A stretch of DNA of 41,316 nucleotides, taken from the UHGV virus genome UHGV-0262680, one strand, 5' to 3'. Of this stretch, positions 271 to 41,028 are shown one piece after another (positions within the stretch are counted from its first letter, which is position 1; every line of letters begins with the position of its first letter). Source of the stretch: a virus. The translations under genes and the position numbers were made by a program. The notes beneath the pieces are model-generated. The model made no database searches. It worked only from the letters and a program-made list of their open reading frames with translations, and was not told the origin of the DNA.

Positions 271-2112
271 TTACTGCTGTGTTGCCTCAGTAGCAAACAG
301 CGGTCTGATGGCATTCGCAGCGTTATTTATCGCTCTTTCATAGGCTGGTGTTCCTGCTTTGGTGTTTGCCAAACGAAGAAGCATATTCCTTGCTGCTTTG
401 GACTCATACAAGCGCATCATTGCACCAAAACCAGCCTCAAGCCCCATTGATACGCCAAGGGTCGCAGTTGCGCCAATCGTCCTTATCCTGTTGGCTTGCG
501 ATTGCCCCGTCTGAGTTACTACATTTGCGGTGTCTGACCTTGCTGTTTGCTGTAGAACTTCATGAAGAGCATCAAGCTCTTTCATGTGCTTTCCAGAAAA
601 AATAGTGTTGTAAATTTCACCGCCTGACTGAGATTTCAGCTTATTAACTTCAGTGATGAACTTGGCTGGAGAGTCCCCGGCCTTTTCCGCTATTTTGCTG
701 ACGTAAGCTGCACGCATAGCATCTTTCCCCTTATCATCCAGTGCGCTCCAGATTCGTTTCACGTCAGATGGTTTTCTGCTTAATACAACGGTATTTATAA
801 GTTCAGGACTGGCTTCACTGCTTGCCTTGTTGAGCTTGTTGGCAATGTTTTTATTAAGCACCTTATTATAAACGTTTGCATAATCGGAATTTGCTTTAAG
901 GTATTTTGCTGCGTCTGATGCACCGAGGTTTTTAGCAACTGCGTTACGAAGGTCTTTTGACATTGCATTCTCTACCATATTGGTAGCTGCTTTTGCCTGG
1001 TTGGGGAAGACCATAGCATCTCCCTGAACATTAGATCTAAATGCTGTTCTGTGCTGACGCAAGAGATCAAACGTAACATCCAAATCAGTTGCAGGGTTTG
1101 CTAATTCTTCACGTAGGTTACGCAAGGATGTAAGCAGGCTTTGATTGGCAGACGTCCCAAGCCGTTCCTGTCTTGCGATCGCTGTATTCAGAGCATTCAT
1201 GGTATTTGTGGTATCAACTGCGGCATTACCCATTTTATTGGTGACGTCATTGATAACAGCGCCAGCGGCATCCTTCCGCCCCCTTAACGTGGTGGTCAGA
1301 GATTTCACCACATCATCAGGGTTGTACTCACCAAAACGGTCAAAATAATTGCTTACCAGCTTACTCCGCGTTGCATATTGCTCTGCTCGCTTTGAGCCCG
1401 TCCCGAGCAAAGCCCCCTCGGCATCCTGAGTAAGGCCGCGAGTGAAAGCATTTTTCGGCGGGATAACATCAGATGTCATTGGTGTCACGCCCATCGATTC
1501 TGATGTGGCAATTTTCTTCGCCACTTCTGGCGCAATATCACCTTTTATAGCCGTTATTCCACGCCCTATTCCCTTTGCTGCTGCGGAAAGAACACCCTGA
1601 GCGGCAAGGTTAACTCCGGCATTTTTAGCTGCATTTTGTGCGAAATCGCCTTTCTGATTTGCGGCCTCTGCCAGCGATCCAATAGCCATGCTTCCTGCCG
1701 TTCCAACTCCTGGAACTAAATACCCACCAATTGTTTCACCGGCTTGTGCGTATGGGTCTGTCGGTTTGTCTACTGGACGATAAACATCATCCAAAACTTT
1801 TGGCCCACCAAGCCCCTGACTGATTGCATTAATCAGACTTGCGCCACCCTGCAATACGTCAAATGGTATGTTTACCAGACCACGACCAGCCTGTTCTGCA
1901 ATTTGCCCTGCACTTTGACCACCAGTGAGCCAATCGCCAGCTTGTTGCATCAATGATGGTTCTTCACGTACTGGTGCATTATTGGCCTGATTAACTGTTT
2001 GTTGCTGAACAACCTGACCAGCAAAATAATCATCAATGGCGGCTCCAATATCTTCCGTGCTCGTACCATCAGGGAAGGTAAATGTCTTACCGTTTGCAGT
2101 TACTTTCATCAT
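271..2112 (-). CDS. P22 gp16-like ejection (internal virion) protein, 613 aa
   Basis: Size and order match the P22 7-20-16 ejection gene set (about 229/471/609 aa). The ATG overlaps the upstream stop in an ATGA junction at 2109-2112. The protein is Ala/Gln/Asn-rich, as ejection proteins are. Confidence 0.6.
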
Positions 2113-3524
2113 TCCACCGTAAATTGAATGACTGATTTTGAGGTATATGATCCAACCTGATTCCGTGGTTCTCCTGAAGGTGTCGAATCTTGTGCTGGCG
2201 CTGCGTCAGTATTCAATGACATATACCGCTTAACGGCACTCCCCAATGATTCACCTTTTTTAACATCCAACCCCAATATCTGACCGCCATTACGCGATTG
2301 TCCAGGATTGCCATTCGCGCTCATCCACTCAGCTTTAAACTCATTAAACTGCGCGTTTCGTCGCTCAAGGTTTGCCATTGCATCAAGCCATCTTGCGACC
2401 GTCTCAGGGTTATCCATGTCAGTTGGCGCACCCTGCCGAACGATCTCAACGTCTTTATCCGTTGCTGGGCCGGGAGGTAGGAATTTAAGAACCTGACTGT
2501 TAACAAGGGCATTTTGGCGGATGCGCAAATCACGCAATGTCGTATCGCTTCCGGTAAGTTTTGCGAACATGTTCTGTGCGTTACCGAACAAACCTGTCGT
2601 TGGTTTTTCTGCTCTGAACTGTTGAGCAAGCGCACTCATAGAATTGGCTGAGTTTGATGATGCTGTGGCATTGTTTACAGCCGTCTCGATGCCTTTTTCC
2701 ATGTTTACTGACAGCTTAGGTGCTTCACTAATCAACTGCTGAGCCTTTTCCTGCGCTTGCTGCATCTTAAACCCGAACTCTTGCTGATCCAGAGCCAAGC
2801 GTTGTGCTGCGATATTGTGCCCAGTCATTGCTGACTGATAGGAAAGGTTTTGCCCTCTCGCCTGAAGTGCTTCACCAGCCTGATTGCTGCGGATTGTCTC
2901 TGCCAGCCTGCCTCGGTCAATTTCACGACCAGCCATCTTATCCTGAACAGCAAACGCCTTTTCTGGTCCAAGCGCACCGAGAGACATAGTAGTCAGCATG
3001 TGTGATAGCTGCTCTGGATTCTGGATACCTGTCTGAATCATCCAGTCAGCATTAGCACCAACGCGATTTAACCTGTCCTTGTTGTCAGTAATGAATTTAC
3101 TGTAGGCTTCCGGTCCCTGAGAAAGAGCGACGTTAGCCCTCATGGCTAAATCGCCCATATCGTTGCGTTGCTGATCATTAAGACCAGAAAACGCCTGTTG
3201 TGCCTGTGCAACAAACGCTGGATTTTCCTGGGCAAACTTAAATAGTCCCGATGGATCACCAGAAGCCCATGCATCAGCGTGAACCTTATTGAACGCACTA
3301 ATCGCTTTCTGTTGCTGTTCCTGATTGTAAATATCAGCAACTCCAGCCAGACCACGTAACGCGGTCAGACCAACGTTATTTGCACCTGAGCGAGCCAACT
3401 CATTGTTTTCGCGGATCAGACCAAGCGTTGCGTTAATGTCGCTTGCCTTTGGCGCATTCTCATTTTGCGTACCGATGCCAGCCAGAAAACCACCAGAATT
3501 AATACCATGTTGCCACGTAGCCAT
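2109..3524 (-). CDS. P22 gp20-like ejection protein, 471 aa
   Basis: 471 aa equals the recalled length of P22 gp20; it sits between the gp7-like and gp16-like ORFs and is Gln/Ala/Asn-rich. Confidence 0.6.
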
Positions 3525-3533
3525 GATTACCCC

Positions 3534-4226
3534 TTAAAACAACGAGCCAAGCAGACCAAGACCGCCGCCGATCGCAGCCCCCCACGGAGTGGATGAACCA
3601 ATTAATTTCGCAAGTCCAGCCCCAGCAATAGCACCAGACGCACCTCCGCCAATAGCAGATTGCATTGCTGATGGTCTGTTGGCATTTGCCGCTGCAAGAG
3701 CCGCACTTTGCTGAGAAATCTGACTCATGTTGTTGGCATATGTCTGCCCGGCGTTTGCCTGACCTTGCAGTGCGCCAAGACCAACATTTGCCAGATTCTG
3801 GTAGTTGTTCATCTGACCAGATAGCCATTGCTGACCAAGCGTTGGTGCGATTGTTGCTAACTGATTACTGGTTGCGGTGGAACCCAATCCACCTGTTGCT
3901 TCCGCTGCAGCCAGACTCTGATAGCGAGCCTGACCTGCAAGGTCTTTATACTGCTGAGAGTTGTAATACTGGTTAAGCGCCTGACCTTGCCCCTCCAGAG
4001 ACGATAAGTTCTCGAGGCTGCCGACATACTTCTCAGCCAGAGGAGTAAACGGTTTCAGGTTGTTCATGATGGTGTTGAACTGCTGATTTTGCAGGTCTGC
4101 GGCATACTTCTGAGCTTCTGCTGCATACTTTGCGCTTTTATCAGAGCTGCCACCTTTCCCGCCTTTTTCATGGCAATAAGGTTCCTCGCCGCGCAGTTTT
4201 CTGCCCAGCTTAAATGCATATAACAT
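3534..4226 (-). CDS. P22 gp7-like ejection protein, 230 aa
   Basis: ATG at 4226-4224 with a GGGAGA ribosome-binding site that now lies 24 bp from the Mu right end. Size and position match P22 gene 7. Confidence 0.6.
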   Translation of the reverse strand: MLYAFKLGRKLRGEEPYCHEKGGKGGSSDKSAKYAAEAQKYAADLQNQQFNTIMNNLKPFTPLAEKYVGSLENLSSLEGQGQALNQYYNSQQYKDLAGQARYQSLAAAEATGGLGSTATSNQLATIAPTLGQQWLSGQMNNYQNLANVGLGALQGQANAGQTYANNMSQISQQSAALAAANANRPSAMQSAIGGGASGAIAGAGLAKLIGSSTPWGAAIGGGLGLLGSLF

Positions 4227-4365: not shown

Positions 4366-5103
4366 TCACTTCGGGTATGGCTGAACCCTGAATAGTTTGG
4401 TGTTTAGGCGTTTTCTTGCGCGCTTGTTCAGGAACCTGATGTAGCGATATTGATTAAATTTGTGTACCACTGCCCGTTCCTTATTAGCCCGCAAATACTC
4501 GCCTCGTTGACCTCCGCGCTTAATCGCGTTCATCGCTATCTCGTGATACCACTCGCCGTCCAGTTCGTAGAATGTGCTTTCATGGCTGCCAATAAAATCA
4601 AAATTCGACGCCTGATATGCCACGCCAGCACGCCCGCAGCGTTCGTCTGCAAAGGACTGAACCCACTCCACTGACGGATACAGTAACCTGATGGTTTTCA
4701 GCGCGTAGCTGATGGCCCGTGATTCAGAATTGCGGGGCATGTCGTCGTGTAACCACATGCGGTTCAGTTCCATGTAACCCCGGTTATCTGTTTCAAGCAC
4801 GACACGACGCCCTGAGTTGGGATTAAGGGCATATCCCCACTGAAGAACGCCAACCAGATCACGTCCGCTGAATACGCCCAGATGCAGGTAGGAGTTATTC
4901 ACAAAACGGCGGGAATAATGCTTTGTCTGAATGATTGTGCGGGCCAGCCAGCAGGATATGGTTTCAACGCGCAACTCCTTTGAACCATAGCCGACAATCC
5001 GGCCTTCATACTCAATAACGCAGGGTTTTGTCAGAATGCGTGATTTCTTCTCTTTTCCCACAATACAGCTCCGTGGGATGCTCTTTGGCATTCGATATGA
5101 CAA
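4366..5103 (-). CDS. mom: Mom DNA-modification protein
   Basis: Last gene before the right end and overlaps the 3' end of com, as in Mu. The track start at 5103 is TTG; the first ATG is at 5091 (MPKSIPRS...). Confidence 0.65.
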
Positions 5104-5197
5104 TGTAACGTTTACAGCGAGGGCATTTAATTTCTATATGCTTAAAACCTCCTTTAAACAGTAACTTATTGCAGTTTTTACAGCGAACAGAGTCCAT
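5012..5197 (-). CDS. com: Com zinc-finger translational activator of mom, 61 aa
   Basis: ATG at 5197 after AGGGGGAA gives [61 protein letters not shown], carrying the CKNC...CPRC zinc-finger pattern of Mu Com. Confidence 0.8.
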
Positions 5198-5270
5198 GAT
5201 TCCCCCTGTGTAATAACCAGATACGACCACCCGGAGGGCTGGGGATATTTAACCACACATGATGTAAAAC

Positions 5271-5298
5271 GACGATCGATATGATGGTATCGATCGTC
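5271..5298. promoter_or_regulatory. Perfect 11-bp inverted repeat with two GATC sites upstream of com-mom
   Basis: GACGATCGATA-TGATGG-TATCGATCGTC; the GATC sites are at 5274-5277 and 5292-5295, about 75-100 bp upstream of the com ATG. Confidence 0.45.
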
Positions 5299-5337
5299 AT
5301 AATCTATACAAAACGCTTAATTATTAACCTTTTTGAG

Positions 5338-5808
5338 TCAGCTTTCTGCGGCACTCTGAGAAAGAGGCTCTGCTATCAGGGACAGCAGTCTCTCTGTCTG
5401 TTTTCTGTTTTCGAGGGTAATTGCGCAATCCCGTTTCACCTCCTCTGCATATAATCTGACACTTTCCGCACTTTTTTGTATCTGCATTGCAATCTCTTCG
5501 AACTTTTTAAGAGATTCAGGGCGCAAATCTGCATCTGTCACCGACAAAAAATCGTTAAGCGAACCGTCCTGTGAATCTTCATAAACGCGAATGATGCCGA
5601 TTTCTGAAAGGCGCTGTGCGCTCTGTGTCAGGCGAACACTGTACACGCCCGGCAGAACGGGGAAGTCGTACTCCCCGCTCTGTGTAGTGACGTGGCTGAA
5701 AACACCTTTCAGAATCCCTGCACGGTTGTGCAGGGAGGTCAGCGTGATGGTTGTGCCGCCCAGCGGTTCTCCTGTGGGCGTTTTAATCACACCTTTAAGC
5801 TGCGGCAT
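5338..5808 (-). CDS. Truncated lambda-Stf-like side-tail-fibre N-terminal domain ORF, about 156 aa (likely gene remnant)
   Basis: From the ATG at 5808: MPQLKGVIKTPTGEPL...IRVYEDSQDGSLNDFL..., resembling the lambda Stf N-terminus (MAVKISGVLKDGTGKP...ITVYEDSQPGTLNDFL). It stops before any fibre shaft or tip and overlaps the end of the tfa gene by 14 bp. Confidence 0.55.
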   Translation of the reverse strand: MPQLKGVIKTPTGEPLGGTTITLTSLHNRAGILKGVFSHVTTQSGEYDFPVLPGVYSVRLTQSAQRLSEIGIIRVYEDSQDGSLNDFLSVTDADLRPESLKKFEEIAMQIQKSAESVRLYAEEVKRDCAITLENRKQTERLLSLIAEPLSQSAAES

Positions 5809-6325
5809 CGGGATGCTCCGGCCAGCTGATGGCATTAAGGGAGGCTTCATCAGTAACGGCGCTTAAATCCAGCGCTTTTACCGCTTTGATATACGCCATC
5901 CACTGCGCAAGACGAGCTTTGTCGTCATCACTGATGACGCCCAGCTCCAGCTCGGTTTTCCAGTCGGAGGTGATGTCCTTTGCTTCAGTCAGCAGATGCT
6001 GGCGTTGTTTTTCTGCCAGTTGCGAATAATCAACAGGAACCGGCAGCACTTCGCCGTCTTTGTAATACCAACTGGCTTCAATGCCAAAGCCTTCCGGCAG
6101 TTCATCAACTTCCACAATGGTGAAGCCTGCCGGATAAAGACGGGACACGTCTTCTGCCATTGAATAAATCACGCCGCTTTCAGGGTGAATGCACAATTTG
6201 TATCTCTTCGTGAATTTGTCCATGGATTCATAAAAATCCTGGCCGTCTTCACTGCGGAAATACTGAATGTTTTCACCATAAGGCATCTCTTTCGGGTAAT
6301 AACGCGTGACGTTTCTGAGTTCCAT
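5795..6325 (-). CDS. Tail-fibre assembly protein (Mu U / Tfa-like), 176 aa
   Basis: ATG at 6325 preceded by TAAGGAG; starts MELRNVTRYYP, the typical Tfa N-terminus, and sits directly downstream of the fibre gene. Confidence 0.7.
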   Translation of the reverse strand: MELRNVTRYYPKEMPYGENIQYFRSEDGQDFYESMDKFTKRYKLCIHPESGVIYSMAEDVSRLYPAGFTIVEVDELPEGFGIEASWYYKDGEVLPVPVDYSQLAEKQRQHLLTEAKDITSDWKTELELGVISDDDKARLAQWMAYIKAVKALDLSAVTDEASLNAISWPEHPDAAA

Positions 6326-6339
6326 TATTTTCTCCTTAA

Positions 6340-7149
6340 TTAGCCGGATACCGTGCGCCATCCGCCATTGATATAAATCTGAGTTTGTTTGTAATACACG
6401 CCGCCGATGTTATCCGCAGAGCTCTTGCCAGTTTCCTGAACGTTAATACCTGACAAAATACAACCTGAAGGCGCGCGAAATACCCAGGAAATTTCGTTAC
6501 CACCGGGATTGTGAAACACTTCGCTGGTATACCTGAAATCACGTACTGCACCAGAATCGGTGCTGCTGATAGTGATATCGCTACTGCCATCAAACAGCAC
6601 ATTGTTAATCCTGCGGGCCGTCTGAAGCCGGGTTGCCGTTCCGGCGTTGCCGCTGATGTTGTTGATGGTGATATCCGAAGTCAGGGGCATGTTGTTGACC
6701 CTGCGGGTATTCGGTACGGCACGACTGGCTTTATCTACCGTGTCACGTAACGAAAGCGCATCTATAAATTCACCGGCCGTGGTTTTGCCAAGAATACCGC
6801 GCACAAACGCACTGAGTGGCGTTAATGACATTGTGTCTTCGCCCGTAAAATACGGGAACGTATTACTCTGACCGGTTAATCCGGCAATAGCCCCAGCTGA
6901 ACCACTGTTAGTGATAAACAGCTTTTTCAGCGCCGTCATAATCTGGTTGGTCGTGTTTTTGTCCGGTTTGATATTTGCCTGCCGGAGAATTTCCAGCATT
7001 TCGGACTGCACGATATTAAACCAGTCCGGCCCCGGATACGTGGGTGGAATACCGTTCCCTCCTTCGGTGAAATAAAGCGTCGTTTTACTGTATTCAGCCG
7101 CGACGGGCGGCATAACCGGCACGCCAGTATTATTATCAATGTGAAACAT
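6340..7149 (-). CDS. Tail-fibre protein (Mu S-like N-terminus), 269 aa
   Basis: MFHIDNNTGV...PPVAAEY N-terminus of Mu/P1 S-type fibres and a conserved FPYFTGEDTMSLTPLSAFVRGILG motif comparable to P2 H/lambda Stf; AGGAG ribosome-binding site. Confidence 0.7.
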   Translation of the reverse strand: MFHIDNNTGVPVMPPVAAEYSKTTLYFTEGGNGIPPTYPGPDWFNIVQSEMLEILRQANIKPDKNTTNQIMTALKKLFITNSGSAGAIAGLTGQSNTFPYFTGEDTMSLTPLSAFVRGILGKTTAGEFIDALSLRDTVDKASRAVPNTRRVNNMPLTSDITINNISGNAGTATRLQTARRINNVLFDGSSDITISSTDSGAVRDFRYTSEVFHNPGGNEISWVFRAPSGCILSGINVQETGKSSADNIGGVYYKQTQIYINGGWRTVSG

Positions 7150-7191
7150 ATCTGATTATTTCTCCTGATATTGTGTATACAGAGATATTTA

Positions 7192-8250
7192 TTATTCAGT
7201 AGCGCTCCTTGCCTGATTAAACAACTCCGCTGTAAAAGTCAGCTCACCCTTAGCGAAGGGAGTGTTCCCTCCTGGTTGAGTCATAAAACTCTGTGAGACA
7301 GTCGTCCAGCTGTTTGTGTCGCTTTGTACGCCATTCTCTGTAATCGTTGCGCCTGCATGGCTGCCATTTTTCACTTTCCAGGCCAGGCGGTTATTGGGGG
7401 CATCAGCACCGCGGTAAGTGACCGAGGCCATAACGGCCACAACATCACTGTTGCTGTTATCCACCGCACCAAACGTGGCCTGTGCGGCATTCAGGGACGG
7501 CGAGAGCATCAGATATCCGGCCTCGCTGTCAGAGGTGTTCAGCCCCGTGACAATATCTTTATTCAGTGAGTTTTTGGCGCTTCCACCGGTAAATGCCGTT
7601 ACCGGGCTGTATCTGACCTCAATGCTTCCGAGCAGGGCGGGTTCTGCACTATTATTTCTACCGTATGTCACTGTTCCACAGTACATATCACCCAGCATTA
7701 ACGTGCCGGATGCACCCGATGAAAAAATATTGTTACCACCACCAATACTCACCTGAATTTTGTCAGTCCGGTCATCTGGTACATAAAACGATGTATTTCC
7801 AACTAATGAGCGGTTGCAGTACAGACTGGCTGAGACATAGCCGTTTTCGTTTCGCGTTGCGAAAATTTCATAGTAATAACTGGCTGCTTCATCAGGATAC
7901 GGGGTTGTAAATGAATAGCCATTAATCCTGATGTGGGATGGCGAAGATGAATATTTCTTTCCCGCACTTAATGTCAGACGAAATCCCAGCTGTACAGCTG
8001 AGGATTTTAAGTCCGGAAGTGTGCTGTACAGTGTGACATATGAGGGTGTCGTAAAAATCAGCCCCGTTCTTTCTACAGTATTTACGGCCTGAGTGCCACG
8101 ACAGACGGATGTTACAGAACCGGACATATCATTGATAAGCGTGACACCGTTTTCGTTCAGTGCTGAAATAATATTTGTTGAATAATAGTTCTCGCACAAT
8201 CCCTCATTCGCCGGAATTTGTCGAAAACTTTCGAGTTTAATAATATTCAA
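7192..8250 (-). CDS. Hypothetical Ser/Thr/Gly/Asn-rich virion protein, 352 aa, probable TTG start
   Basis: Long ORF between the gp48-like baseplate gene and the fibre gene; AAGGAG lies 7 nt upstream of the TTG at 8250. No family recognised from memory. Confidence 0.45.
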   Translation of the reverse strand: MNIIKLESFRQIPANEGLCENYYSTNIISALNENGVTLINDMSGSVTSVCRGTQAVNTVERTGLIFTTPSYVTLYSTLPDLKSSAVQLGFRLTLSAGKKYSSSPSHIRINGYSFTTPYPDEAASYYYEIFATRNENGYVSASLYCNRSLVGNTSFYVPDDRTDKIQVSIGGGNNIFSSGASGTLMLGDMYCGTVTYGRNNSAEPALLGSIEVRYSPVTAFTGGSAKNSLNKDIVTGLNTSDSEAGYLMLSPSLNAAQATFGAVDNSNSDVVAVMASVTYRGADAPNNRLAWKVKNGSHAGATITENGVQSDTNSWTTVSQSFMTQPGGNTPFAKGELTFTAELFNQARSATE

Positions 8251-8273
8251 AGCGGCTCTCCTTTTATTTTATG

Positions 8274-9248
8274 TCATTCGGACGTGACCACAGCAAAATG
8301 CAGTCCCGGGTGATTAATCAATAACGGTTCACGGGTTCTGCTGGCTGTCTGCAACTGCATACTGTTAACCGGTACGGGGGAGCGGGTCCTGTATCCCGTC
8401 TGCAACTGTGCGCTGTTCATGGTCATGGGGTCCGTTGTCGGCAGACCTGAGTGCAATTGCGCCCTGCTGAGTACCAGTGGTTCTGCCGTCGGACGGGCGG
8501 CATAAAAGTTAATCCGGTTAATTGTCAGCGGCTTACCTGTCAGTGCCGGAACAAGTGCAAAATGCAGCCCTGCACAGTTAACCGTTAACGGTTCTTCTGG
8601 TTTATATCCGGCCTGAATCTGTATGCGATTAACGGATAATGGCGGACCGGACACAGCCTCATCGTTACCATCGGTGTAAAAAAACTCATACCCTGTTCCA
8701 CCCATGCGGTAATTTTTCAGGAGACATTCCAGCTCGCGGGTGCGTCCGCTGATTAATGGTGTCATGACATCATCAACACAGGTAAAACGCCCGGCGTCGC
8801 TGTCCTGAACCTCCACTTTCAGCAGCCAGCGATACCGCGCCGGATGCAGCGGGTACATGCAGTCGCGCAGGCAGTGATGCGGCAGAACGGCCGTCACCTT
8901 GATGGTGAAGCCCAGCGCCGCAGCAGCGGCTTCAATCTGCCAGGTTGCCAGCCCACCCTTGCGGCGGTATTTCTCCACCACGGCACGACGGCGGGCTTCC
9001 GTTGTGGTGGCGGCAATTCCGCATTCCGGCAGCGCCAGATACTGCTCCCACTCCGGCAGCAGCTGGAGCGTGGTTTCCGGGCGCATCTCCACATGCAGAC
9101 GCGAGGCGTCGTATTCAATGCGGGTTAAACGCGCTGCAAGCGCCCTTAAAAAACGGTTTAAATCCGCGTCGTTATCACGCGGCCATGCTTTACCCCGTGG
9201 CATGACCTGTTGCAGTGCGGTCAGCCATTCCGTCACGCTGTGAGCCAT
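8274..9248 (-). CDS. Baseplate protein (Mu gp48 / P2 gpI-like) with a C-terminal tandem-repeat extension, 324 aa
   Basis: The N-terminal ~200 aa resemble the small baseplate protein family; the C-terminus carries seven ~17-aa repeats of the form P-L-x-(V/I)-N-x-x-x-L. Confidence 0.55.
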   Translation of the reverse strand: MAHSVTEWLTALQQVMPRGKAWPRDNDADLNRFLRALAARLTRIEYDASRLHVEMRPETTLQLLPEWEQYLALPECGIAATTTEARRRAVVEKYRRKGGLATWQIEAAAAALGFTIKVTAVLPHHCLRDCMYPLHPARYRWLLKVEVQDSDAGRFTCVDDVMTPLISGRTRELECLLKNYRMGGTGYEFFYTDGNDEAVSGPPLSVNRIQIQAGYKPEEPLTVNCAGLHFALVPALTGKPLTINRINFYAARPTAEPLVLSRAQLHSGLPTTDPMTMNSAQLQTGYRTRSPVPVNSMQLQTASRTREPLLINHPGLHFAVVTSE

Positions 9249-19119: not shown

Positions 19120-19556
19120 CACAGCACCCCTTTCAGGTTGTTACGGGTGAACAGCCGGGCATTGGCACCCACCACAATGATCTTCCCGTGGTCGGTTTCT
19201 GCCGGGGTGGCATACGTCGGCAGACCCAGGTCACGGGTGCCGTTCGCCATCTCACGCAGGGTTTTAATGGCGTCGTCGTAGCGTTTCTGGATCAGCTCCG
19301 TGATTTGATTGTCACGCTCTGACAACCAGTAAAACGCCAGCGATACCGCCACGCGTTGCAGCGGGCGCGGGATTTCCGTCACTCCCAGCGGCAGCGGGTA
19401 GCGGCGGGACAGAAACGAATCAATTTCCGCTTCGGCATCACTGATGGCCTGACGGATTTTGTCTTCATCCAGTTCGTTGGTTTCCCGGTTAATCGCCATG
19501 TTCCAGACAAGATTGCCGTCCGCGCGTAACAGGTCTTCCTGCGTGATATACCCCAT
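19119..19556 (-). CDS. Head completion protein, 145 aa
   Basis: Position; ATG at 19556. Confidence 0.4.
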   Translation of the reverse strand: MGYITQEDLLRADGNLVWNMAINRETNELDEDKIRQAISDAEAEIDSFLSRRYPLPLGVTEIPRPLQRVAVSLAFYWLSERDNQITELIQKRYDDAIKTLREMANGTRDLGLPTYATPAETDHGKIIVVGANARLFTRNNLKGVL

Positions 19557-19867
19557 CAGCCTTTCTCCGCTTCCCGGACAATCAGATTCGGTTCAGCCAT
19601 CAGGCGGGTGGCAACCGCAGCGGTCACCGCCACATCCTCACCGGCATGTGACCAGAAACGGCCACAGCGCCAGAACCCGTTTTCAGACACGGCCCGGACG
19701 TTCAGCCGGACAGGGGCGTCACCCTGTACAGCAGTCGGGGCTTCAGCCGGACGTGGTTCATTCGCCTGACCGTCAGCCACAATAACGTCTGCCAGCGGTG
19801 CCGGGTTTTCCTGTGCTGCGCTGTTCTTTGCGGCTTTCGCGCCTTTGGTTCCTGCTTTTTCACTCAT
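19556..19867 (-). CDS. Small hypothetical head protein, 103 aa
   Basis: ORF immediately downstream of the major head gene. Confidence 0.35.
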   Translation of the reverse strand: MSEKAGTKGAKAAKNSAAQENPAPLADVIVADGQANEPRPAEAPTAVQGDAPVRLNVRAVSENGFWRCGRFWSHAGEDVAVTAAVATRLMAEPNLIVREAEKG

Positions 19868-19945
19868 GACTCTGCCTTTTAAAAGGCAGTTAAAAGGGCA
19901 TTCACAGCGCCTTTTAACTGCGGGTTACAGATTACGGATGACGGG

Positions 19946-20848
19946 TTATGCCGGGGTGGTGATGAACGGACTGACCACGATGTCCACATCCTTGTACCAG
20001 ATGTTGGAATCGCCGCCGTTAACCAGCATGGCGTCAATGATGCGCTTCGCGGCTGCACGGTTTTTCGGCCCCACCACAAGGGTGGTCGGGCGGATGCCCA
20101 GCGGTTCACCGTTGGTAGCCTTCATACCCAGCAGCAGATTGCTGGCCTTCTCGTAGTTCTCCGCTGTCAGTGCCGCACGGGAACCGACGGCGGTCTGCCA
20201 GAAGCCGAAGCCCGCATTGCAGCGACCGTCCACCCCGTAAAGGAACTCGTTATTCTTGAAGGTGTGCTCGCTGTTCAGATCATCCAGGGCTTCAAACTTA
20301 AAGGCGCGTCGCGTCTGCCAGATGATGGGTTTCAGTACCTGAGAATCATCAATCAGGAACCACGGTTCTCCCTGGTCTGATGCCGGGGTGCCGACAACGT
20401 TGCTGCAGGTGCCGTCGCCCAGCGGGTGGTCTTCATCAAAGAAGTTCTGACCGTCAAAACACAGGGTGTTAAACCCGGCACACAGCAGGGGGTAACACAG
20501 CTTGTCCGGGAACTCCGACGTCTGGCGGCCATAGCGTTCAGCGATAATGCTGTACTGACCAATCTGATCGTCTTCAATGTGTTCGCGTTTAACGCGGATC
20601 GAACTTTCCCAGGTTTTGTTCGCAAGGGTGTAACCATAACCGTCCAGCGTTGCCATCTGACGGGCGCTGACCCATTCTTTAATCTCCGGTAAATCCTTCA
20701 TCCAGCCGTAGGTATTGGAGGCGGACGAACTCGGGATTTCAGAGGCGATACGCTGCCACTGTGGGGTGACACCACTCAGACCACGGGTATAAGCGGCGCT
20801 CAGACAGGTGGTCAGCGCGTGAAGGACTTCGGAAGTGACTGCTCCCAT
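19946..20848 (-). CDS. Major head (capsid) protein (Mu T-like), 300 aa
   Basis: About 300 aa directly downstream of the protease/scaffold gene, as in Mu. Confidence 0.7.
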   Translation of the reverse strand: MGAVTSEVLHALTTCLSAAYTRGLSGVTPQWQRIASEIPSSSASNTYGWMKDLPEIKEWVSARQMATLDGYGYTLANKTWESSIRVKREHIEDDQIGQYSIIAERYGRQTSEFPDKLCYPLLCAGFNTLCFDGQNFFDEDHPLGDGTCSNVVGTPASDQGEPWFLIDDSQVLKPIIWQTRRAFKFEALDDLNSEHTFKNNEFLYGVDGRCNAGFGFWQTAVGSRAALTAENYEKASNLLLGMKATNGEPLGIRPTTLVVGPKNRAAAKRIIDAMLVNGGDSNIWYKDVDIVVSPFITTPA

Positions 20849-21810
20849 CAGTTATTCTCCTGTTTTGGTTTAGCGGCGAGGAACTCTTCCCCGGTAATAC
20901 CCATGCTGCGGCACATCGCCAGTTCGGCGTCGGTCAGTGTCTGCACGGGTTTATCCTTGCCCTGGCTGGGCTTGTCGTTGTTCACCAGCGGCTGTGCACC
21001 TCTGGTGTACTCCGCAAACTGTTTGCGGCCTTCTTCCGTACGGCAGGTGGCAAGGAACATGTCACGGTTTGCCGGGGCCACTTTTCCGGCTTCGATGGCC
21101 GCATCCACAAGCGCTTCTGCTTCCTTCTCTTCCAGTTGCTGAAGGCGTTGTTCTGCGGTTTCGGCACGGTTCAGTGCCAGATTGTGGGTTTCCACCGGCA
21201 CAAACTTCGTCAGATCAGGTGTCTGTGCGCGGTTCAGCGCCACCTGTTCGTTCTCCTGAAGTTGTTTAATGGCGGCCACGGTATCGTCCACCGTGGCGGA
21301 TTCAGCCAGCCCAAGCAGGCCGGTGATTTGCACAGGTACTGTCATCGGGTTTTTCTCCGTATTCAGTGCAGGAAAATCCAGGTTAGGTTTGTTGGTCAGC
21401 CCGACGCTGGACAGGCGTGTCACCGCACCGTCCGCGTCAAAGAAAAACGCCGGGCTGTAATAGCGGTAGCGGCGCTCGCTCAGCATCCACCGGGCGGACT
21501 CACTCCAGACAACACGGCCTTCAATGGTGCTGCTGTCCGTCACCCGCAGTTCCTCCACCCAGCCATACGCCGGAGCATCTTCACCCCGCGGGCCTTTAAT
21601 TTCGGTGGCGTGTTCAATGTCCACCGGAATTTTGATGTCGGACGAACGGGCAACCACCTCATGTGGATTGCGGTTAATCCACGTCCGGCCATCGCGCCCG
21701 GTGAACTCACCCGCAGGGACGAGTTCAAGCCATTCCGGCAGTTGAGCGGGTGTCAGCTCATTGATGGGTTCTGGCAGGGAAAAACACAGCGCCAGCAGTT
21801 CCGGTTGCAT
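20848..21810 (-). CDS. Head protease/scaffold protein (Mu I-like), 320 aa
   Basis: First gene after the F-I intergenic region; has a C-terminal charged, coiled-coil-like scaffold region. Confidence 0.65.
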   Translation of the reverse strand: MQPELLALCFSLPEPINELTPAQLPEWLELVPAGEFTGRDGRTWINRNPHEVVARSSDIKIPVDIEHATEIKGPRGEDAPAYGWVEELRVTDSSTIEGRVVWSESARWMLSERRYRYYSPAFFFDADGAVTRLSSVGLTNKPNLDFPALNTEKNPMTVPVQITGLLGLAESATVDDTVAAIKQLQENEQVALNRAQTPDLTKFVPVETHNLALNRAETAEQRLQQLEEKEAEALVDAAIEAGKVAPANRDMFLATCRTEEGRKQFAEYTRGAQPLVNNDKPSQGKDKPVQTLTDAELAMCRSMGITGEEFLAAKPKQENN

Positions 21811-37599: not shown

Positions 37600-37938
37600 C
37601 AACCAGGTAATGGCTAAGACATAAACTTCACTCCAGGTTATTACATATGTAAGATACCCAAACAGTGATGATTGTTTTTGACACACAGCACTTGCTGAAA
37701 GCCTGGTTGTTACCGTTTTTGAAGCATTTTTGAAGCTGTACTTGAAATGATGCGTGAAGTAATTGCTTTTCGTGTCTTTAATGAATCAAAAGCTGTTTCC
37801 AACAATCTTTCGCGTTTCAAGATGTAACGGCTAAAATCTATCCTACAGGCTTGCAAGCCCCACTAAATCTAATCCCGCCAAATCCCGAATAATCCAATGT
37901 CCTCCCGGTTTTTTTCGTACTTCACGTGAATCAATACA
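37600..37938. promoter_or_regulatory. Mu left end (attL) with transposase-binding sites
   Basis: Terminal sequence rc TGTATTGATTCACGTGAAGTACGAAAAAAACCGGGAGGACATTGG..., with further TGAAGC/TTTCG-type repeats inward. Confidence 0.65.
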
Positions 37939-38377
37939 GGAATTCGATTAGTTCTTCGCGTGTAGCACTGTAAAAAGTCACGTCATCCACGCCTTTGAAG
38001 TATTTCTTGATGGTTCCTACACGCTTAAGGCCAATCATTGCGCAGTACATCTGCCCGTGGCGGAATTTGCGTGCAGCGAACGATGTGACGCACTGAACGG
38101 TGGTGTTAGTCAGAATGTATCGCCAGAACGCCAGACCGATTTCCTTGCTGAATCCACGAACCTCTGGCAGGTACATGGCGTGGCAATCGAATGTCAGCGG
38201 CTGAATCTCCTGATAGTAAACAATGCCGCCGAACTGCCCGTGCACGCTCACCTCAAAGTAACGGCATTCAGGTTTGTAGTCGTATCCATCGCCGTTGTTG
38301 CTCCCGGCGATAATGTCAGGGTGATTTCCGACTGCTTCTATCAGGTCGATGTTTCGCGTTGGTTTGAATGTAATCAT
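37931..38377 (-). CDS. P22 gene-14-like protein, C-terminus altered by the Mu insertion
   Basis: The ORF reads from host DNA into the Mu left end, ending ...ELIEFLY. Joining the flanks across one GGAAT copy restores ...ELIEFLNHGR-stop. Confidence 0.55.
   Translation of the reverse strand: MITFKPTRNIDLIEAVGNHPDIIAGSNNGDGYDYKPECRYFEVSVHGQFGGIVYYQEIQPLTFDCHAMYLPEVRGFSKEIGLAFWRYILTNTTVQCVTSFAARKFRHGQMYCAMIGLKRVGTIKKYFKGVDDVTFYSATREELIEFLY
37939..37943. repeat. 5-bp target-site duplication GGAAT (right copy)
   Basis: Identical to 4246-4250. Confidence 0.85.
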
Positions 38378-39078
38378 CAGTCAATCAGCCCATGTAATCT
38401 AAGTGCCGTTTCAAGCGCCAGAATACGCTGCCGCGCCTGCTGCAAACCTGTAGCGAGAGCTGCGACTTCGGATTGTGTGTACGTAGTGCCGACAGTGTAT
38501 GACTGGTTAGCGTTGAATGAGCCAAGAAGTGGCGTACCTGTGGCTGCAGTCCATCCGGTATTTCTTGCTCCAACAACCTGAATTCCATCAACTGAATATG
38601 ATGTTTTTACATCCAGCGGTGACTCAAGAGACTGCAATTCGGTTACGGTTTTCGATACGTAATCACTCTTAATGCCAGAGACATCGTTTTCTACGTCATC
38701 CAGTCTTTGGTCAACAGTGACCAGATGCGCCTGAATATCGATAACCTCATCCAGCAAGTAATCAACATCGCTACGCAGTACGACTATCTTCCCTTCGGCA
38801 GTTGTTAACCTGACCTCAAGTAGATTTATCGCTTTTGTGTTTGCGGTGATTCTTGCGTCGTGATCAGCCAGTTCGACGTCCTGTTCATCGTTTTTCACCT
38901 GAGCATCGTAAGCGCCCTGACCAGCCTGATTTGCCTTCCCGGCAATTGCGCCGACATCAGCCCCCTGATTAATGACATACAGCAGGTAAGACTGGCTGAA
39001 TATATTGCGTGGAAGGATTGATGTATCGAGCCGCGTCGCCTGCACAATAACAGGGGTGTTGAGATTCGAATCAGCCAT
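38377..39078 (-). CDS. P22 gp26-like tail needle protein, 233 aa
   Basis: [77 protein letters not shown]... closely resembles the P22 tail needle ([27 protein letters not shown]...) as recalled; 233 aa. Confidence 0.8.
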
Positions 39079-40496
39079 TACTCAATCCTTATCTGGCAGC
39101 CAGACAGAGTGACAGGTGACTTCGTGATAACGCGCAATTTGAAGCCGACATTTTTCCTGATGCGCCCGACTCGCTTCCACAAAACGCGTTTGTCGTAAAC
39201 GAACGGTTCATTCTGCTCAATCATCTGCTCACGACCGTAATTTATGCCGTCAGTGGTCGCAGAGAGGAACAGGCGGTCGGCGTACTGAGCTACGCCAGTG
39301 GACGATTCCACCTCCAGATCGAAGCATCTGGCGTTATCCGCTTTGAACAACGGAGTAAACAGAAGGTGTTCCTGTTGAAGCCCATACTGACTGCTGATAT
39401 CGAACTGCAATTTCCCGGTCACCGATTCCAGCTTATCGCCGCACGTTATCTGATTGCCTTCGTAAATGAAGTCGATAGCGCGGTACACATCGTCATACAG
39501 GCCTGTTTTAAGCACACACCATTGCGGACCATTGGCGCTTGAAGATGCGTCGTACACGAGGACGTGACGCGGAAGATGGATAATCAGCAACTCATGAGCA
39601 TCAAACCGCAACGATTCCATCACGCCATCAGCCAGTTCATCAGCAGTGTAGGAGCGGAGGATTTTCTCAATGCTCGCACTGGCGATTGGTGACACCTGAC
39701 CGGAGCCGATGATGTACACAGACGGCGCACCTGTTGCCGGATTGCTGATGAACGCATATGAATCAGAGAATGGCGTTTTGCAGTAAGTCCCGGCGATTCC
39801 TTTTTGCACCATTAGTGATGGCTGTGCGACATACAAAGCGGCACCAACGGTGGTTGCACCAGTCAGGGAAAAATATTCAATCGTCGATGAACCAAAGCAG
39901 ACGATGAAATCTCGCCATGTTCCGATGCCGATGATACCGTCCGGCTGCGATTCTGCCCGATATTGTGCGCTGTAGCGGTCAGGATGCGATTCGTCTTCAA
40001 GGTCAGTGATAAACCATGAATCAGTACCGTCTTTTGACCACGCATAACGCCCACGTAAACGCGTAATGTCACGGACCGAACCTAACTCATACTGCGTGAA
40101 TCCGCTGTCCGTAGGCCAGTTTGAGACGGTTTTAACCGTGCCATCATAGCGGTATTCGACCAGTTGACCATTAACGCCTACCGCCTGTGATGTCCGACCA
40201 TGTGCCATTGATACGCGACCACTTCCGGCAACATCACCAACTTCACTTTCTCCTTTGTACAGCTTGCCACCACACACGCGATAAACAGCACTCTGCGCCA
40301 TGTTGTACTCGACGCCTCGCGATACGCCGTTCACATCAGAACGTTTGGCAATGCCCGGGAATGAGCGAAGATATCCCGATGAATTCAACACCTCCTTGGG
40401 CGTAGCTAAAAGATTGACTGGAAGTTGGTCTATATAATCAGCATTAACCGCACTTTTCCCCAATCCCTTCATTAGTGGTAGTTGTTGTATTGCCAT
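39078..40496 (-). CDS. P22 gp10-like tail hub protein, about 472 aa
   Basis: Immediately upstream of the tail needle gene; from the ATG at 40496 it is 472 aa, matching P22 gp10 (the track start at 40505 is TTG). Confidence 0.65.
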
Positions 40497-41028
40497 TGGA
40501 ATCAACCTTTATATGAACCCAGTTAGCATCACGCTTTAGCCTACTTGCCCAGGTCTTAGATATCCCGTACTTAGCCGCAATTACTGACAAGCTTTCTTTT
40601 GATGACTTGATTGCAAGAACATCGTCATCACTCAACTTGTGTTTTGGGTGCTTGGTTCCGAAAAACTTGATTGGTTTCTTTAATCCGGTGGCGTATGCAT
40701 GTTTGATGTTTTCGCTTTGAGTGCACCACTCAAGATTATTGACGTTATTATTGAGTGGATTGCCATCAATATGATTTACCTGAGGCTTGTTTTCAGGATT
40801 TGGCAGGAATGTCATTGCAACGATTCGATGGGCAAAAGTCCATTTTGCTCCGATATTATAAAGCACCCTTCCCTGATTGATTTTAGGCTTTAACCAGCGC
40901 CCCTTTCTGAGTTGCGTGCTGCCATGCGCAGCCTTAACAACACGTGAGTGAGAATATACCCTGCCATCTTCTGTTACGGCATAAACACCTTCAAATCCAG
41001 GTATATCTTTAGCATTCTCAGAAAGCAT
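40444..41028 (-). CDS. HNH homing endonuclease, 194 aa
   Basis: HNH motif HIDGNPLNNNVNNLEW and a C-terminal helix-turn-helix-like DNA-binding segment; strong AAGGAG ribosome-binding site. Confidence 0.75.
   Translation of the reverse strand: MLSENAKDIPGFEGVYAVTEDGRVYSHSRVVKAAHGSTQLRKGRWLKPKINQGRVLYNIGAKWTFAHRIVAMTFLPNPENKPQVNHIDGNPLNNNVNNLEWCTQSENIKHAYATGLKKPIKFFGTKHPKHKLSDDDVLAIKSSKESLSVIAAKYGISKTWASRLKRDANWVHIKVDSNGNTTTTTNEGIGEKCG

What the first reader, a model, noticed from the sequence alone, without database searches (positions are those of the whole stretch)
7192..8250. Unassigned 352-aa Ser/Thr/Gly/Asn-rich ORF with TTG start inside the tail-fibre module
Canonical Mu has no gene between the small baseplate protein and the fibre gene. 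This ORF has a good ribosome-binding site (AAGGAG, 7 nt spacer) in front of a TTG start and a composition typical of receptor-binding or beta-rich fibre proteins. It may be an additional receptor-binding protein or depolymerase.
Basis: inference. Interest (0 to 1): 0.45.

Follow-up and report, generated by a model that had tools for sequence, protein, structure and literature searches.

The report
Add-on tail protein with docking repeats
The ORF is a real, conserved phage tail-module gene that came in as a 1.5-kb add-on together with a repeat tail fused onto the baseplate protein gp48, and it most likely gives this Mu-like prophage a second, sugar-binding attachment protein, though its function has never been tested.

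Summary
Window 7192-8250 on the minus strand is a 352-aa ORF with a TTG start and an AAGGAG site 7 nt upstream. It is under purifying selection, and RefSeq annotates it as hypothetical.

It is not a split fibre gene. It belongs to a very small family (PHROG 8291, unknown function), almost entirely from Escherichia prophages.

- **Fold:** a confident AlphaFold model shows a compact protein built of beta-sandwiches of the concanavalin-A-like lectin/glucanase type, not a beta-helix tailspike.
- **Relatives:** it is a remote homologue of Achromobacter phage AchV4 gp25-27 (hhalign 95%, full-length TM 0.66). Mass spectrometry found gp25 and gp26 in AchV4 virions.
- **Origin:** window 7151-8671 is a 1,521-bp insertion absent from a 91-93% identical sister prophage. 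It carries this ORF plus a 130-aa C-terminal extension of baseplate wedge protein gp48, made of seven ~17-aa PLxIN...L repeats.
- **Linkage:** the repeat module precedes ORF352 homologues in nearly every locus. It is fused to three unrelated tail anchors (gp48, lambda-Stf N-domain, tail-collar fibre N-domain) or stands alone.

Best reading (inferred): a portable two-part accessory receptor-binding device. Rivals are an assembly chaperone, an enzyme and a moron. I rate it a new variant of a known kind, of moderate interest.

The parts
7192..8250 (-). ORF352: 352-aa protein with a TTG start and TAA stop. Member of PHROG 8291. Compact protein built of lectin-like beta-sandwiches. Proposed accessory tail adhesin.
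8258..8263 (-). Shine-Dalgarno site AAGGAG, 7 nt upstream of the TTG start.
   Evidence: Read from the sequence. An equivalent purine-rich site is conserved in all related loci.
8277..8671 (-). Cext: C-terminal extension of gp48 (about aa 193-324), absent from ordinary gp48. It contains seven repeats of 17-20 aa, PLxIN...L (aa 203-324, window 8277-8642), and ends in the invariant LxFA motif (...GLHFAVVTSE*). Proposed docking module for ORF352.
   Evidence: Not covered by the Pfam or PHROG gp48 models, which stop at aa 191 and 199. No Pfam or PDB match. Absent from more than 100 gp48 homologues of about 193 aa. Found directly upstream of ORF352 homologues in 30 of 36 loci. AlphaFold pLDDT 24-48 as a monomer.
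7151..8671 (-). The 1,521-bp insertion cassette (Cext, intergenic region, ORF352, and 41 nt carrying the fibre gene's ribosome-binding site), defined relative to a sister Mu-like prophage.
   Evidence: In a blastn comparison of the window with L036, the flanks align at 93% and 91% identity, and window 8671..7151 replaces 10 bp of L036. GC drops from about 60% in the baseplate core genes to 43-53% from about 8600 downwards. dS is 0.5-0.9 inside the cassette against 0.2 in the flanking baseplate genes.
8672..9248 (-). gp48 proper: baseplate wedge protein 3, YmfQ/DUF2313. In Mu it is present as one copy per wedge and carries the fibre-docking loop.
   Evidence: Pfam PF10076, E = 9e-30, aa 11-191. 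phrog_203 baseplate wedge subunit. Stoichiometry and docking loop taken from PMC11915804.
6340..7149 (-). Primary tail fibre (269 aa), complete, immediately downstream of ORF352.
   Evidence: phrog_1833 and phrog_6859 tail fibre. The same 269-aa gene follows gp48 directly in L036.
5795..6361 (-). Tail fibre assembly protein (Caudo_TAP) for the primary fibre.
   Evidence: Pfam PF02413, E = 7e-21.

Best explanation
ORF352 is an accessory tail protein that works together with the repeat extension (Cext) fused to the C-terminus of baseplate wedge protein gp48. The two arrived as one 1.5-kb cassette.

Proposed mechanism (inferred):
- The 17-aa PLxIN...L repeats, which end in an invariant LxFA strand, do not fold on their own and act as a docking arm at the edge of each of the six wedges.
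- ORF352, a compact lectin-like beta-sandwich protein translated at a low level from a conserved TTG start, binds that arm and stays in the virion.
- This gives the phage a second receptor-binding specificity beside its normal fibre, probably for a surface glycan.

The same plug-and-socket pair has been grafted onto other tail anchors in other prophages: the lambda-Stf N-domain and the tail-collar fibre N-domain.

Shown: the gene is real and under selection; it travels with the repeat module; its fold; remote homology to proven virion proteins. Inferred: physical binding, retention in the virion, and receptor or glycan binding.
For: 1. Co-gain. A sister Mu-like prophage, 91-93% identical in the flanks, has a 194-aa gp48 followed directly by the same fibre gene. 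Cext and ORF352 are both absent from it, and together they form one 1,521-bp insertion. More than 100 gp48 homologues are about 193 aa and lack Cext.

2. Linkage across backbones.
- In 30 of 36 loci the ORF upstream of the ORF352 homologue ends 17-30 nt before it, carrying 4-7 repeats and the LxFA terminus.
- In L007-type prophages gp47 and the gp48 N-domain are only 26-29% identical to the window, yet Cext is 87% and ORF352 98% identical.
- The repeat module is fused to PF10076 (gp48), PF08400 (phage_tail_N) or PF12571 (tail-collar fibre N) anchors.
- The most distant family members (P0032, P0041) and L002 also follow 16-18-aa repeat modules, some as stand-alone proteins of 64-90 aa.
- The identity matrices of Cext and ORF352 correlate: Mantel r = 0.63, reached by 66 of 5,000 permutations.

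3. Virion association by homology. Full-length structural matches to AchV4_0026 and relatives have TM 0.55-0.70. Profile-profile probability is 95.2%, E = 2.8e-8 over 199 columns. AchV4_0025 and AchV4_0026 were detected in virions by LC-MS/MS and lie directly after the tail fibre gene (PMC7996906).

5. Operon position. The gene is co-directional with its neighbours, with gaps of 23 and 42 nt and no promoter or terminator hit in either gap. The TTG start is conserved.

6. Host-range-like behaviour. Within one backbone the cassette is replaced by a 73%-identical allele (dS 0.9 against 0.2 in the flanks), with dN/dS 0.21.

7. gp48 is the protein that docks the normal fibre in Mu (PMC11915804).
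Against: - There is no direct evidence of binding between Cext and ORF352.
- The Cext model is low-confidence. That may simply reflect a 5-sequence alignment over that region.
- No sequence match exists in 50,697 isolated phage genomes, so no virion proteomics exists for this family itself.
- Sequence variation is spread evenly over both halves, rather than showing the conserved-anchor and variable-tip pattern typical of receptor-binding proteins.
- In L012 and L014 the gene sits after the fibre and its chaperone rather than directly after Cext.
- L018 pairs an 88%-identical ORF352 with a 35%-identical Cext.
- gp48 is monomeric per wedge, whereas the other anchors are presumably trimeric, so stoichiometry is unclear.
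- The fold is equally compatible with an enzyme.
Confidence: 0.55

Rival explanations
1. Assembly chaperone only. ORF352 binds the C-terminal repeats of the upstream protein to fold or stabilise them, as tail fibre assembly proteins do for the fibre encoded just upstream. It is then released and is not a receptor-binding component.
For: It sits immediately downstream of the C-terminus it would act on, which is the classical fibre-then-chaperone gene order. Cext is not predicted to fold alone. The weak TTG start implies sub-stoichiometric amounts.
Against: There is no Caudo_TAP or other chaperone-family match. A 352-aa lectin-like beta-sandwich protein is large for a chaperone of a 120-aa peptide. 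Its remote homologues AchV4_0025 and AchV4_0026 are present in mature virions. Its alleles diversify like host-range genes.
Confidence: 0.15
2. Virion-borne enzyme. ORF352 is a jelly-roll polysaccharide lyase or glycosidase (a non-canonical depolymerase), or a carbohydrate esterase partner, that trims capsule or O-antigen at the baseplate.
Against: Matches are at fold level only (7-13% identity) and score no better than non-catalytic CBMs and lectins. The PL7 signature motifs are not present in the sequence; this rests on inspection and recalled motifs, not a tool test. Of the polar residues, the hhalign alignment shows E128, N146 and D188 aligned to identical residues in AchV4_0026. That trio would equally fit a structural metal site of a lectin or CBM (from memory).
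Confidence: 0.12
3. Moron or non-structural cargo. The protein is expressed from the prophage for the benefit of the host (surface modification, exclusion or virulence) and only happens to sit in the tail region.
For: The family is confined to prophages, with no hit in isolated phages. In several prophages it is the last gene of the tail module, next to the prophage end, a typical moron site. Many carriers are human clinical isolates.
Against: No signal peptide is evident from inspection of the N-terminus. No own promoter or terminator was found. Here it lies in the middle of the late operon, between gp48 and the fibre. It is strictly coupled to a repeat module fused to structural tail proteins. 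It is homologous to virion proteins. It has no PADLOC match.
Confidence: 0.05
4. N-terminal half of a split or frameshifted tail fibre gene.
For: Its composition resembles that of the fibre (39.5% against 37.5% S+T+G+N), and it lies adjacent to the fibre gene.
Against: The fibre gene downstream is full length with its own N-terminal domain and ribosome-binding site, and it occurs unchanged without ORF352 in L036. ORF352 homologues are always separate proteins of about 350 aa with conserved starts and stops. No fibre PHROG or Pfam family matches ORF352.
Confidence: 0.01

Closest known systems
Achromobacter phage vB_AchrS_AchV4 gp25/gp26/gp27 (phrog_2448; Casjensviridae distal-tail proteins of unknown function)
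   Same: Same size (333-377 aa) and same overall fold (TM 0.66 for gp26). Profile-profile homology at 95% probability. Shared motifs MxIIxLEGFxQ at the N-terminus, YYYE...LYxN and GDxY. Encoded at the distal end of the tail module, after the fibre gene. gp25 and gp26 are proven virion components (PMC7996906).
   Different: No direct HMM hit, and the single-sequence hhalign comparison was negative. Those proteins occur as three tandem paralogues in a lytic siphovirus. They are not preceded by a PLxIN repeat module; a different repeat array lies at the N-terminus of the following gene, gp28. Their function is also unknown.
T2/T6/S16-type gp38 adhesin on the tip of long tail fibre gp37 (from general knowledge)
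   Same: A separate, non-fibrous adhesin encoded immediately downstream of the protein whose C-terminal tip it caps, with alleles that determine host range. This is the closest analogy for how ORF352 would work.
Accessory carbohydrate-binding baseplate modules of Gram-positive siphophages (for example Tuc2009 BppA, CBM insertions in Dit/Tal; from general knowledge)
   Same: An optional lectin/CBM-fold protein added to the baseplate periphery beside the primary receptor-binding protein. It is present in some relatives and absent in close kin.
   Different: Different phage lineages, different docking mode, and no homology shown.
Mu gp48-gp49 fibre docking (PMC11915804)
   Same: The same baseplate protein, gp48 (wedge protein 3), is the platform. 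In Mu its loop 133-155 anchors the trimeric fibre N-terminus.
   Different: Here a second site, a 130-aa C-terminal repeat arm that Mu and most gp48 proteins lack, would hold a globular monomer-like protein rather than a fibre.
Tail fibre assembly proteins (Caudo_TAP: lambda Tfa, Mu U)
   Same: The position directly downstream of the partner's C-terminus. Some Tfa proteins remain bound at the fibre tip (from general knowledge).
   Different: No PF02413 match, twice the size, and a different fold. A genuine Caudo_TAP gene is present separately at 5795-6361.

Membership tests
PHROG 8291 (unknown function) | Full-length match to the family profile | tested here: met
   E = 1e-243, residues 1-348 against profile positions 1-348 of 349.
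phrog_2448 / AchV4 gp25-27 superfamily | Same overall fold over the full length | tested here: met
   Foldseek BFVD: TM 0.66 to A0A7T3PGU3 (identified with AchV4_0026 by its 352-aa length and product name), and 0.55-0.70 to about 12 other phage proteins of 306-371 aa.
phrog_2448 / AchV4 gp25-27 superfamily | Statistically supported sequence homology | tested here: met
   hhalign of A5 against A6: probability 95.2%, E = 2.8e-8, 199 columns. However, there was no direct hmmscan hit to phrog_2448, and the single-sequence hhalign comparison was negative.
phrog_2448 / AchV4 gp25-27 superfamily | Presence in the mature virion | not testable with these tools
   Shown only for AchV4_0025 and AchV4_0026 by LC-MS/MS (PMC7996906). 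No isolated phage carries an ORF352-family gene.
Concanavalin A-like lectin/glucanase fold | Beta-sandwich jelly roll superposable on known members | tested here: met
Concanavalin A-like lectin/glucanase fold | Carbohydrate-binding or catalytic residues in place | not testable with these tools
Only conserved polar residues could be listed.
Tailspike depolymerase | Trimeric right-handed beta-helix catalytic domain | tested here: not met
Tail fibre assembly chaperone (Caudo_TAP, PF02413) | Match to the family model | tested here: not met
   No Pfam, NCBIfam or PHROG chaperone hit. The true TAP is the neighbouring gene at 5795-6361.
Tail fibre (split gene hypothesis) | Homology to the fibre N-terminal or shaft region, with an incomplete downstream fibre | tested here: not met
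   No fibre family matches ORF352. The downstream fibre is complete and identical in layout in L036, which lacks ORF352.
Adenovirus/reovirus-type triple beta-spiral (considered for the Cext repeats only) | Match to shaft repeat models, and a trimeric chain | tested here: not met
   No Pfam hit even at E <= 10 and no PDB profile hit. gp48 is one copy per wedge. The resemblance in the PLxV...L pattern is recalled from memory only.
Anti-phage defence systems (PADLOC) | Match to any defence protein model | tested here: not met
   No hits for ORF352 or Cext.

The most novel reading that the evidence does not exclude
The 17-aa PLxIN...L / LxFA repeat arm and the ORF352-family protein form a previously undescribed, portable plug-and-socket attachment system. 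A short, intrinsically unfolded repeat peptide can be fused to any tail anchor: a monomeric baseplate wedge protein, a lambda-Stf N-domain, a tail-collar fibre N-domain, or a stand-alone 64-90-aa protein. It recruits one or several copies of a lectin-like adhesin. This would be a way of adding a receptor-binding protein that does not depend on trimeric fibre architecture, is exchanged horizontally between myo- and siphovirus prophages, and could be used to engineer host range.
Probability: 0.3. Interest if true: 0.65.

Novelty: new variant of a known kind. Interest (0 to 1): 0.5.

Why it matters
Host range of temperate phages and phage-derived particles is set by what hangs on the baseplate.

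If this reading is right, about 1% of complete E. coli genomes (55-66 of 5,426) carry prophages with a second, uncharacterised receptor-binding device. That device moves as a compact 1.5-kb cassette between unrelated tail types.

It would also give a first functional handle on two PHROG families of unknown function (8291 and 2448). These include abundant virion proteins of Casjensviridae.

Finally, it would describe a docking principle, a repeat peptide on a monomeric wedge protein, that could be copied for engineering Mu- or P2-like phages, tailocins and related contractile injection systems. If the protein proves to be only a chaperone, or is not in the virion, the finding is an ordinary mosaic tail-module gene.

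Tried and rejected
- **Complex prediction.** The key interaction therefore remains untested.
- **Homologue search with Cext alone.** It returned a single fragment, so Cext-bearing proteins had to be collected from loci and from the full-length gp48 search.
- **Searching viral contigs with the Cext alignment.** The search for related loci failed because no stretch was conserved enough. The reciprocal question, whether Cext modules exist without ORF352, therefore remains open.
- **AlphaFold model of full-length gp48.** The N-domain was acceptable but Cext had pLDDT 24-48, which gives no information on its fold.
- **Sequence searches for ORF352.** Pfam, NCBIfam, PADLOC and PDB sequences gave nothing. 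tblastn against 50,697 phage genomes gave nothing, even at E <= 10.
- **hhalign of the narrow family against AchV4_0026 alone.** This was negative. Homology only emerged after adding distant members and the three AchV4 paralogues.
- **Triple beta-spiral idea for the repeats.** It was not supported by any tool and conflicts with gp48 stoichiometry.
- **Conserved anchor domain versus variable tip.** This pattern was not found; entropy is 1.21 bits in both halves.
- **Split-fibre and defence-system readings.** Both were rejected.
- **Literature searches.** Searches on gp48/Mu-like, YmfQ, beta-spiral and Casjensviridae found no description of this module.

Full report
**Observation**

The ORF is real and sits exactly at 7192-8250, on the minus strand.
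- Its start is TTG. AAGGAG lies at 8258-8263 with a 7-nt spacer, and an in-frame stop lies seven codons upstream.
- S+T+G+N make up 39.5% of residues, against 24.9% for 13 other genes of the element.
- RefSeq annotates the identical ORF as a hypothetical protein in a 99.9%-identical prophage.
- The gene is flanked by 23-nt and 42-nt gaps, is co-directional with its neighbours, and has no promoter-like or terminator-like site in either gap.
- The TTG start with a Shine-Dalgarno site is kept in 32 of 34 related loci, including lineages at about 50% protein identity where a stop one codon upstream leaves no other start.
- Against a 73%-identical allele in the same phage backbone, dN/dS is 0.21.

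This is a translated gene under selection.

**Context**

The window is a Mu-like prophage.
- It has MuA and MuB transposition proteins, a Mu-type repressor-like DNA-binding protein, and com and mom.
- The baseplate genes run gp43 to gp48.
- After ORF352 come a complete 269-aa fibre, a Caudo_TAP chaperone and a truncated second fibre.
- In Mu itself, gp48 is wedge protein 3. It is present as one copy per wedge, and its loop 133-155 docks the trimeric fibre gp49 (PMC11915804).

**What the protein is**

- No Pfam, NCBIfam, PADLOC or PDB-sequence match exists.
- The protein matches PHROG 8291 (unknown function) over its full length, E = 1e-243.
- The family is tiny. There are 27 clusters at 90% identity among 5.8 billion sequences, and 17 representatives among 1.84 billion proteins. 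Of the clusters that carry a source name, all are from Escherichia coli except one from Raoultella planticola, and one further genome locus is from E. albertii.
- It has no relative in 50,697 isolated phage genomes, even at E <= 10.
- An AlphaFold model built on 24 homologues is confident (pLDDT 90.4, pTM 0.89) and almost all-beta.
- Foldseek against the PDB agrees, with low TM scores because only part of the query aligns.
- The model is not a beta-helix tailspike and not a fibre.

**Link to proven virion proteins**

- Foldseek against predicted viral structures finds full-length matches of the same size (TM 0.55-0.70). They are from Achromobacter phage AchV4, Serratia phage JS26 (three paralogues), Providencia phages Kokobel1 and Stilesk, Cronobacter JC01 and others.
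- The best named hit is a 352-aa AchV4 "virion structural protein", which I identify with AchV4_0026 by length and product name (MW269554 25062-26120). It lies with paralogues 0025 and 0027 directly after the putative tail fibre gene.
- AchV4_0025 and AchV4_0026 were detected in virions by LC-MS/MS (PMC7996906 Table 1).
- A single-sequence profile comparison was negative.
- Widening the family with its distant members (A5) and aligning the three AchV4 paralogues (A6) gives hhalign probability 95.2%, E = 2.8e-8 over 199 columns.
- Shared motifs are visible by eye: MxIIxLEGFxQ at the N-terminus, YYYE...LYxN, and GDxY.
- The AchV4 proteins belong to phrog_2448, also of unknown function.

ORF352 is therefore a remote member of a superfamily of distal-tail virion proteins. 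Its own presence in particles is inferred, not shown.

**The other half of the feature**

- gp48 here is 324 aa, but the Pfam and PHROG gp48 models end at residues 191 and 199.
- More than 100 gp48 homologues, including ones 92-93% identical, are about 193 aa.
- The extra 130 residues (Cext, window 8277-8671) are seven repeats of 17-20 aa of the form PLxIN...L. The last one ends in ...GLHFAVVTSE*.
- A sister Mu-like prophage (L036) has a 194-aa gp48 followed after 3 nt by the same 269-aa fibre gene, with neither Cext nor ORF352.
- In a blastn comparison the flanks align at 93% and 91%, and window 8671..7151 (1,521 bp) replaces 10 bp of L036.
- GC falls from about 60% in the baseplate core to 43-53% from about 8600 downwards.

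Cext and ORF352 therefore entered as a single cassette, fused in frame to the end of gp48.

**The pair travels together**

Among 36 loci with an ORF352 homologue and upstream sequence:
- In 30, the upstream ORF ends 17-30 nt before the homologue and carries 4-7 such repeats plus an LxFA terminus.
- In L007-type prophages the baseplate genes are only 26-29% identical to the window, yet Cext is 87% and ORF352 98% identical.
- The repeat module is fused to three unrelated tail anchors: PF10076 gp48 (window, L007, L012, L023), PF08400 lambda-Stf-type N-domain (L006, L031) and PF12571 tail-collar fibre N-domain (L018) by Pfam scan. L017 and L035 are assigned to the latter two groups by similarity. 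P0152 also combines PF08400 with Cext.
- In L002/L003 a stand-alone 64-aa protein with degenerate repeats precedes the gene.
- For the most distant member, P0041, a stand-alone 90-aa four-repeat protein ending ...GLNALTESEV* abuts it. For P0032 the upstream ORF ends in VPVKxxYG... repeats and ...GVMMISSEV*.
- The exceptions are L012, L014 and L042. There Cext is on gp48, but the fibre and its chaperone intervene before ORF352.
- Pairwise identity matrices of Cext and ORF352 correlate (Mantel r = 0.63, reached by 66 of 5,000 permutations). This could be linkage as much as co-evolution. L018 pairs an 88%-identical ORF352 with a 35%-identical Cext.
- Cext matches nothing in Pfam (even at E <= 10) or in the PDB, and no Pfam or PHROG hit on the proteins that carry it covers it.
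- AlphaFold gives Cext pLDDT 24-48 as a monomer.

**Mechanism proposed**

Shown:
- ORF352 is a selected gene of the late tail operon.
- It has a lectin-like beta-sandwich fold.
- It is remotely homologous to virion proteins.
- It was co-acquired with, and is persistently linked to, a repeat module attached to structural tail anchors.

Inferred:
- The repeat arm is a docking site that folds on binding.
- ORF352 binds it and stays on the baseplate periphery, with six gp48 copies per virion.
- ORF352 acts as a second receptor-binding module, probably for a surface glycan, beside the normal fibre.

Within one phage backbone the cassette is swapped for a 73%-identical allele, with dS of 0.9 against 0.2 in the flanks. 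This is the mosaic behaviour expected of host-range genes. I put this reading at about 0.55.

**Rivals**

- **Chaperone only (0.15).** The gene order fits and Cext does not fold alone. But there is no chaperone family match, the protein is large for the task, and its homologues are in virions.
- **Moron (0.05).** The family is prophage-only and sometimes sits at the end of the tail module. But it has no promoter of its own, no signal peptide, and is structurally coupled to tail proteins.
- **Split fibre gene (0.01).** Refuted.

**Comparison with what is known**

- In working principle the closest analogue is the T2/S16-type gp38 adhesin, encoded just downstream of gp37 and capping its tip. The accessory CBM proteins of Gram-positive siphophage baseplates are a second analogue. 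Both comparisons come from general knowledge, and no homology was found.
- In descent, the closest relatives are the AchV4 gp25-27 / phrog_2448 proteins, whose function is also unknown.
- A resemblance of the repeats to the adenovirus fibre-shaft triple beta-spiral is only a recollection. No tool supports it, and gp48 is monomeric per wedge.

**Novelty and verdict**

- An accessory receptor-binding protein on a baseplate is a known kind of thing.
- A repeat-peptide socket that can be fused to a monomeric wedge protein or to fibre N-domains, paired with this lectin-like family, does not appear in Pfam, PHROGs annotations, the PDB or the papers searched.
- I rate it a new variant of a known kind, interest 0.5.
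- The cassette is present in 55-66 of 5,426 complete E. coli genomes.
- The decisive experiments are multimer prediction, virion proteomics or cryo-EM of the induced prophage, pull-downs, and deletion or allele-swap host-range tests.

Noticed in passing
window 271-4226 and 37931-41028: The Mu-like prophage (about 4.25-37.9 kb) has transposed into a P22-like prophage. The left flank encodes P22 gp7, gp20 (Inj_translocase) and a 613-aa protein. The right flank encodes DUF2824, a 233-aa protein, Phage_stabilise and an HNH endonuclease. The P22-like ejection-protein operon is therefore interrupted.
   Followed up: partly
window 5338-5850 (-): A second fibre with a lambda-Stf-type N-terminal domain (PF08400) is truncated to 170 aa. 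The sister prophage L036 keeps it intact (464 aa) with a DUF4376 gene, and about 1.65 kb is missing here. The lineage that gained Cext and ORF352 has therefore lost its second fibre.
   Followed up: partly
window 4366-7149: There is no gin invertase or invertible G segment, unlike Mu. The fibre region runs fibre, TAP, truncated second fibre, com, mom.
   Followed up: no
window 8277-8642 (-): The repeat arm looks internally duplicated. Repeat 2 (PLTVNCAGLHFALVPALTGK) resembles the terminal unit (PLLINHPGLHFAVVTSE). Shorter modules in L006, L018, L023 and L031 have only the distal 4-5 repeats. There could be two docking sites per arm.
   Followed up: no
L037 (AchV4, MW269554) 19255-20991: AchV4_0028, just downstream of the three ORF352-like paralogues, starts with about 11 repeats of 17-22 aa of the type RVxAQFAQVL. 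This may be an analogous repeat partner placed on the other side.
   Followed up: no
L002 7002-9357 and L039 2661-7083: Where the repeat module is a stand-alone protein of 64-90 aa, the fibre encoded upstream ends in a shared C-terminal domain of about 100 aa (motif LPAGRA...W...FxWD). In L002 a small conserved 88-aa protein (phrog_4772) follows the ORF352 homologue.
   Followed up: no
P0092 (Logan contig, 1.8 kb) and hit H59 (E. coli E94, NZ_CP119740.1 2142710-2142871): Two odd junctions were seen. One is a Baseplate_J protein fused directly to Cext. The other is the first 162 nt of Cext at 99% identity lying under an annotated mom gene. These are probably deletions or assembly artefacts.
   Followed up: no
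L042 (E. coli plasmid NZ_OZ547049.1) and L043 (NZ_CP027550.1): Decayed copies exist. On a 249-kb plasmid the gp48 gene is a pseudogene lacking its C-terminus while ORF352 is intact. In L043 the ORF352 homologue is cut to 228 aa.
   Followed up: partly
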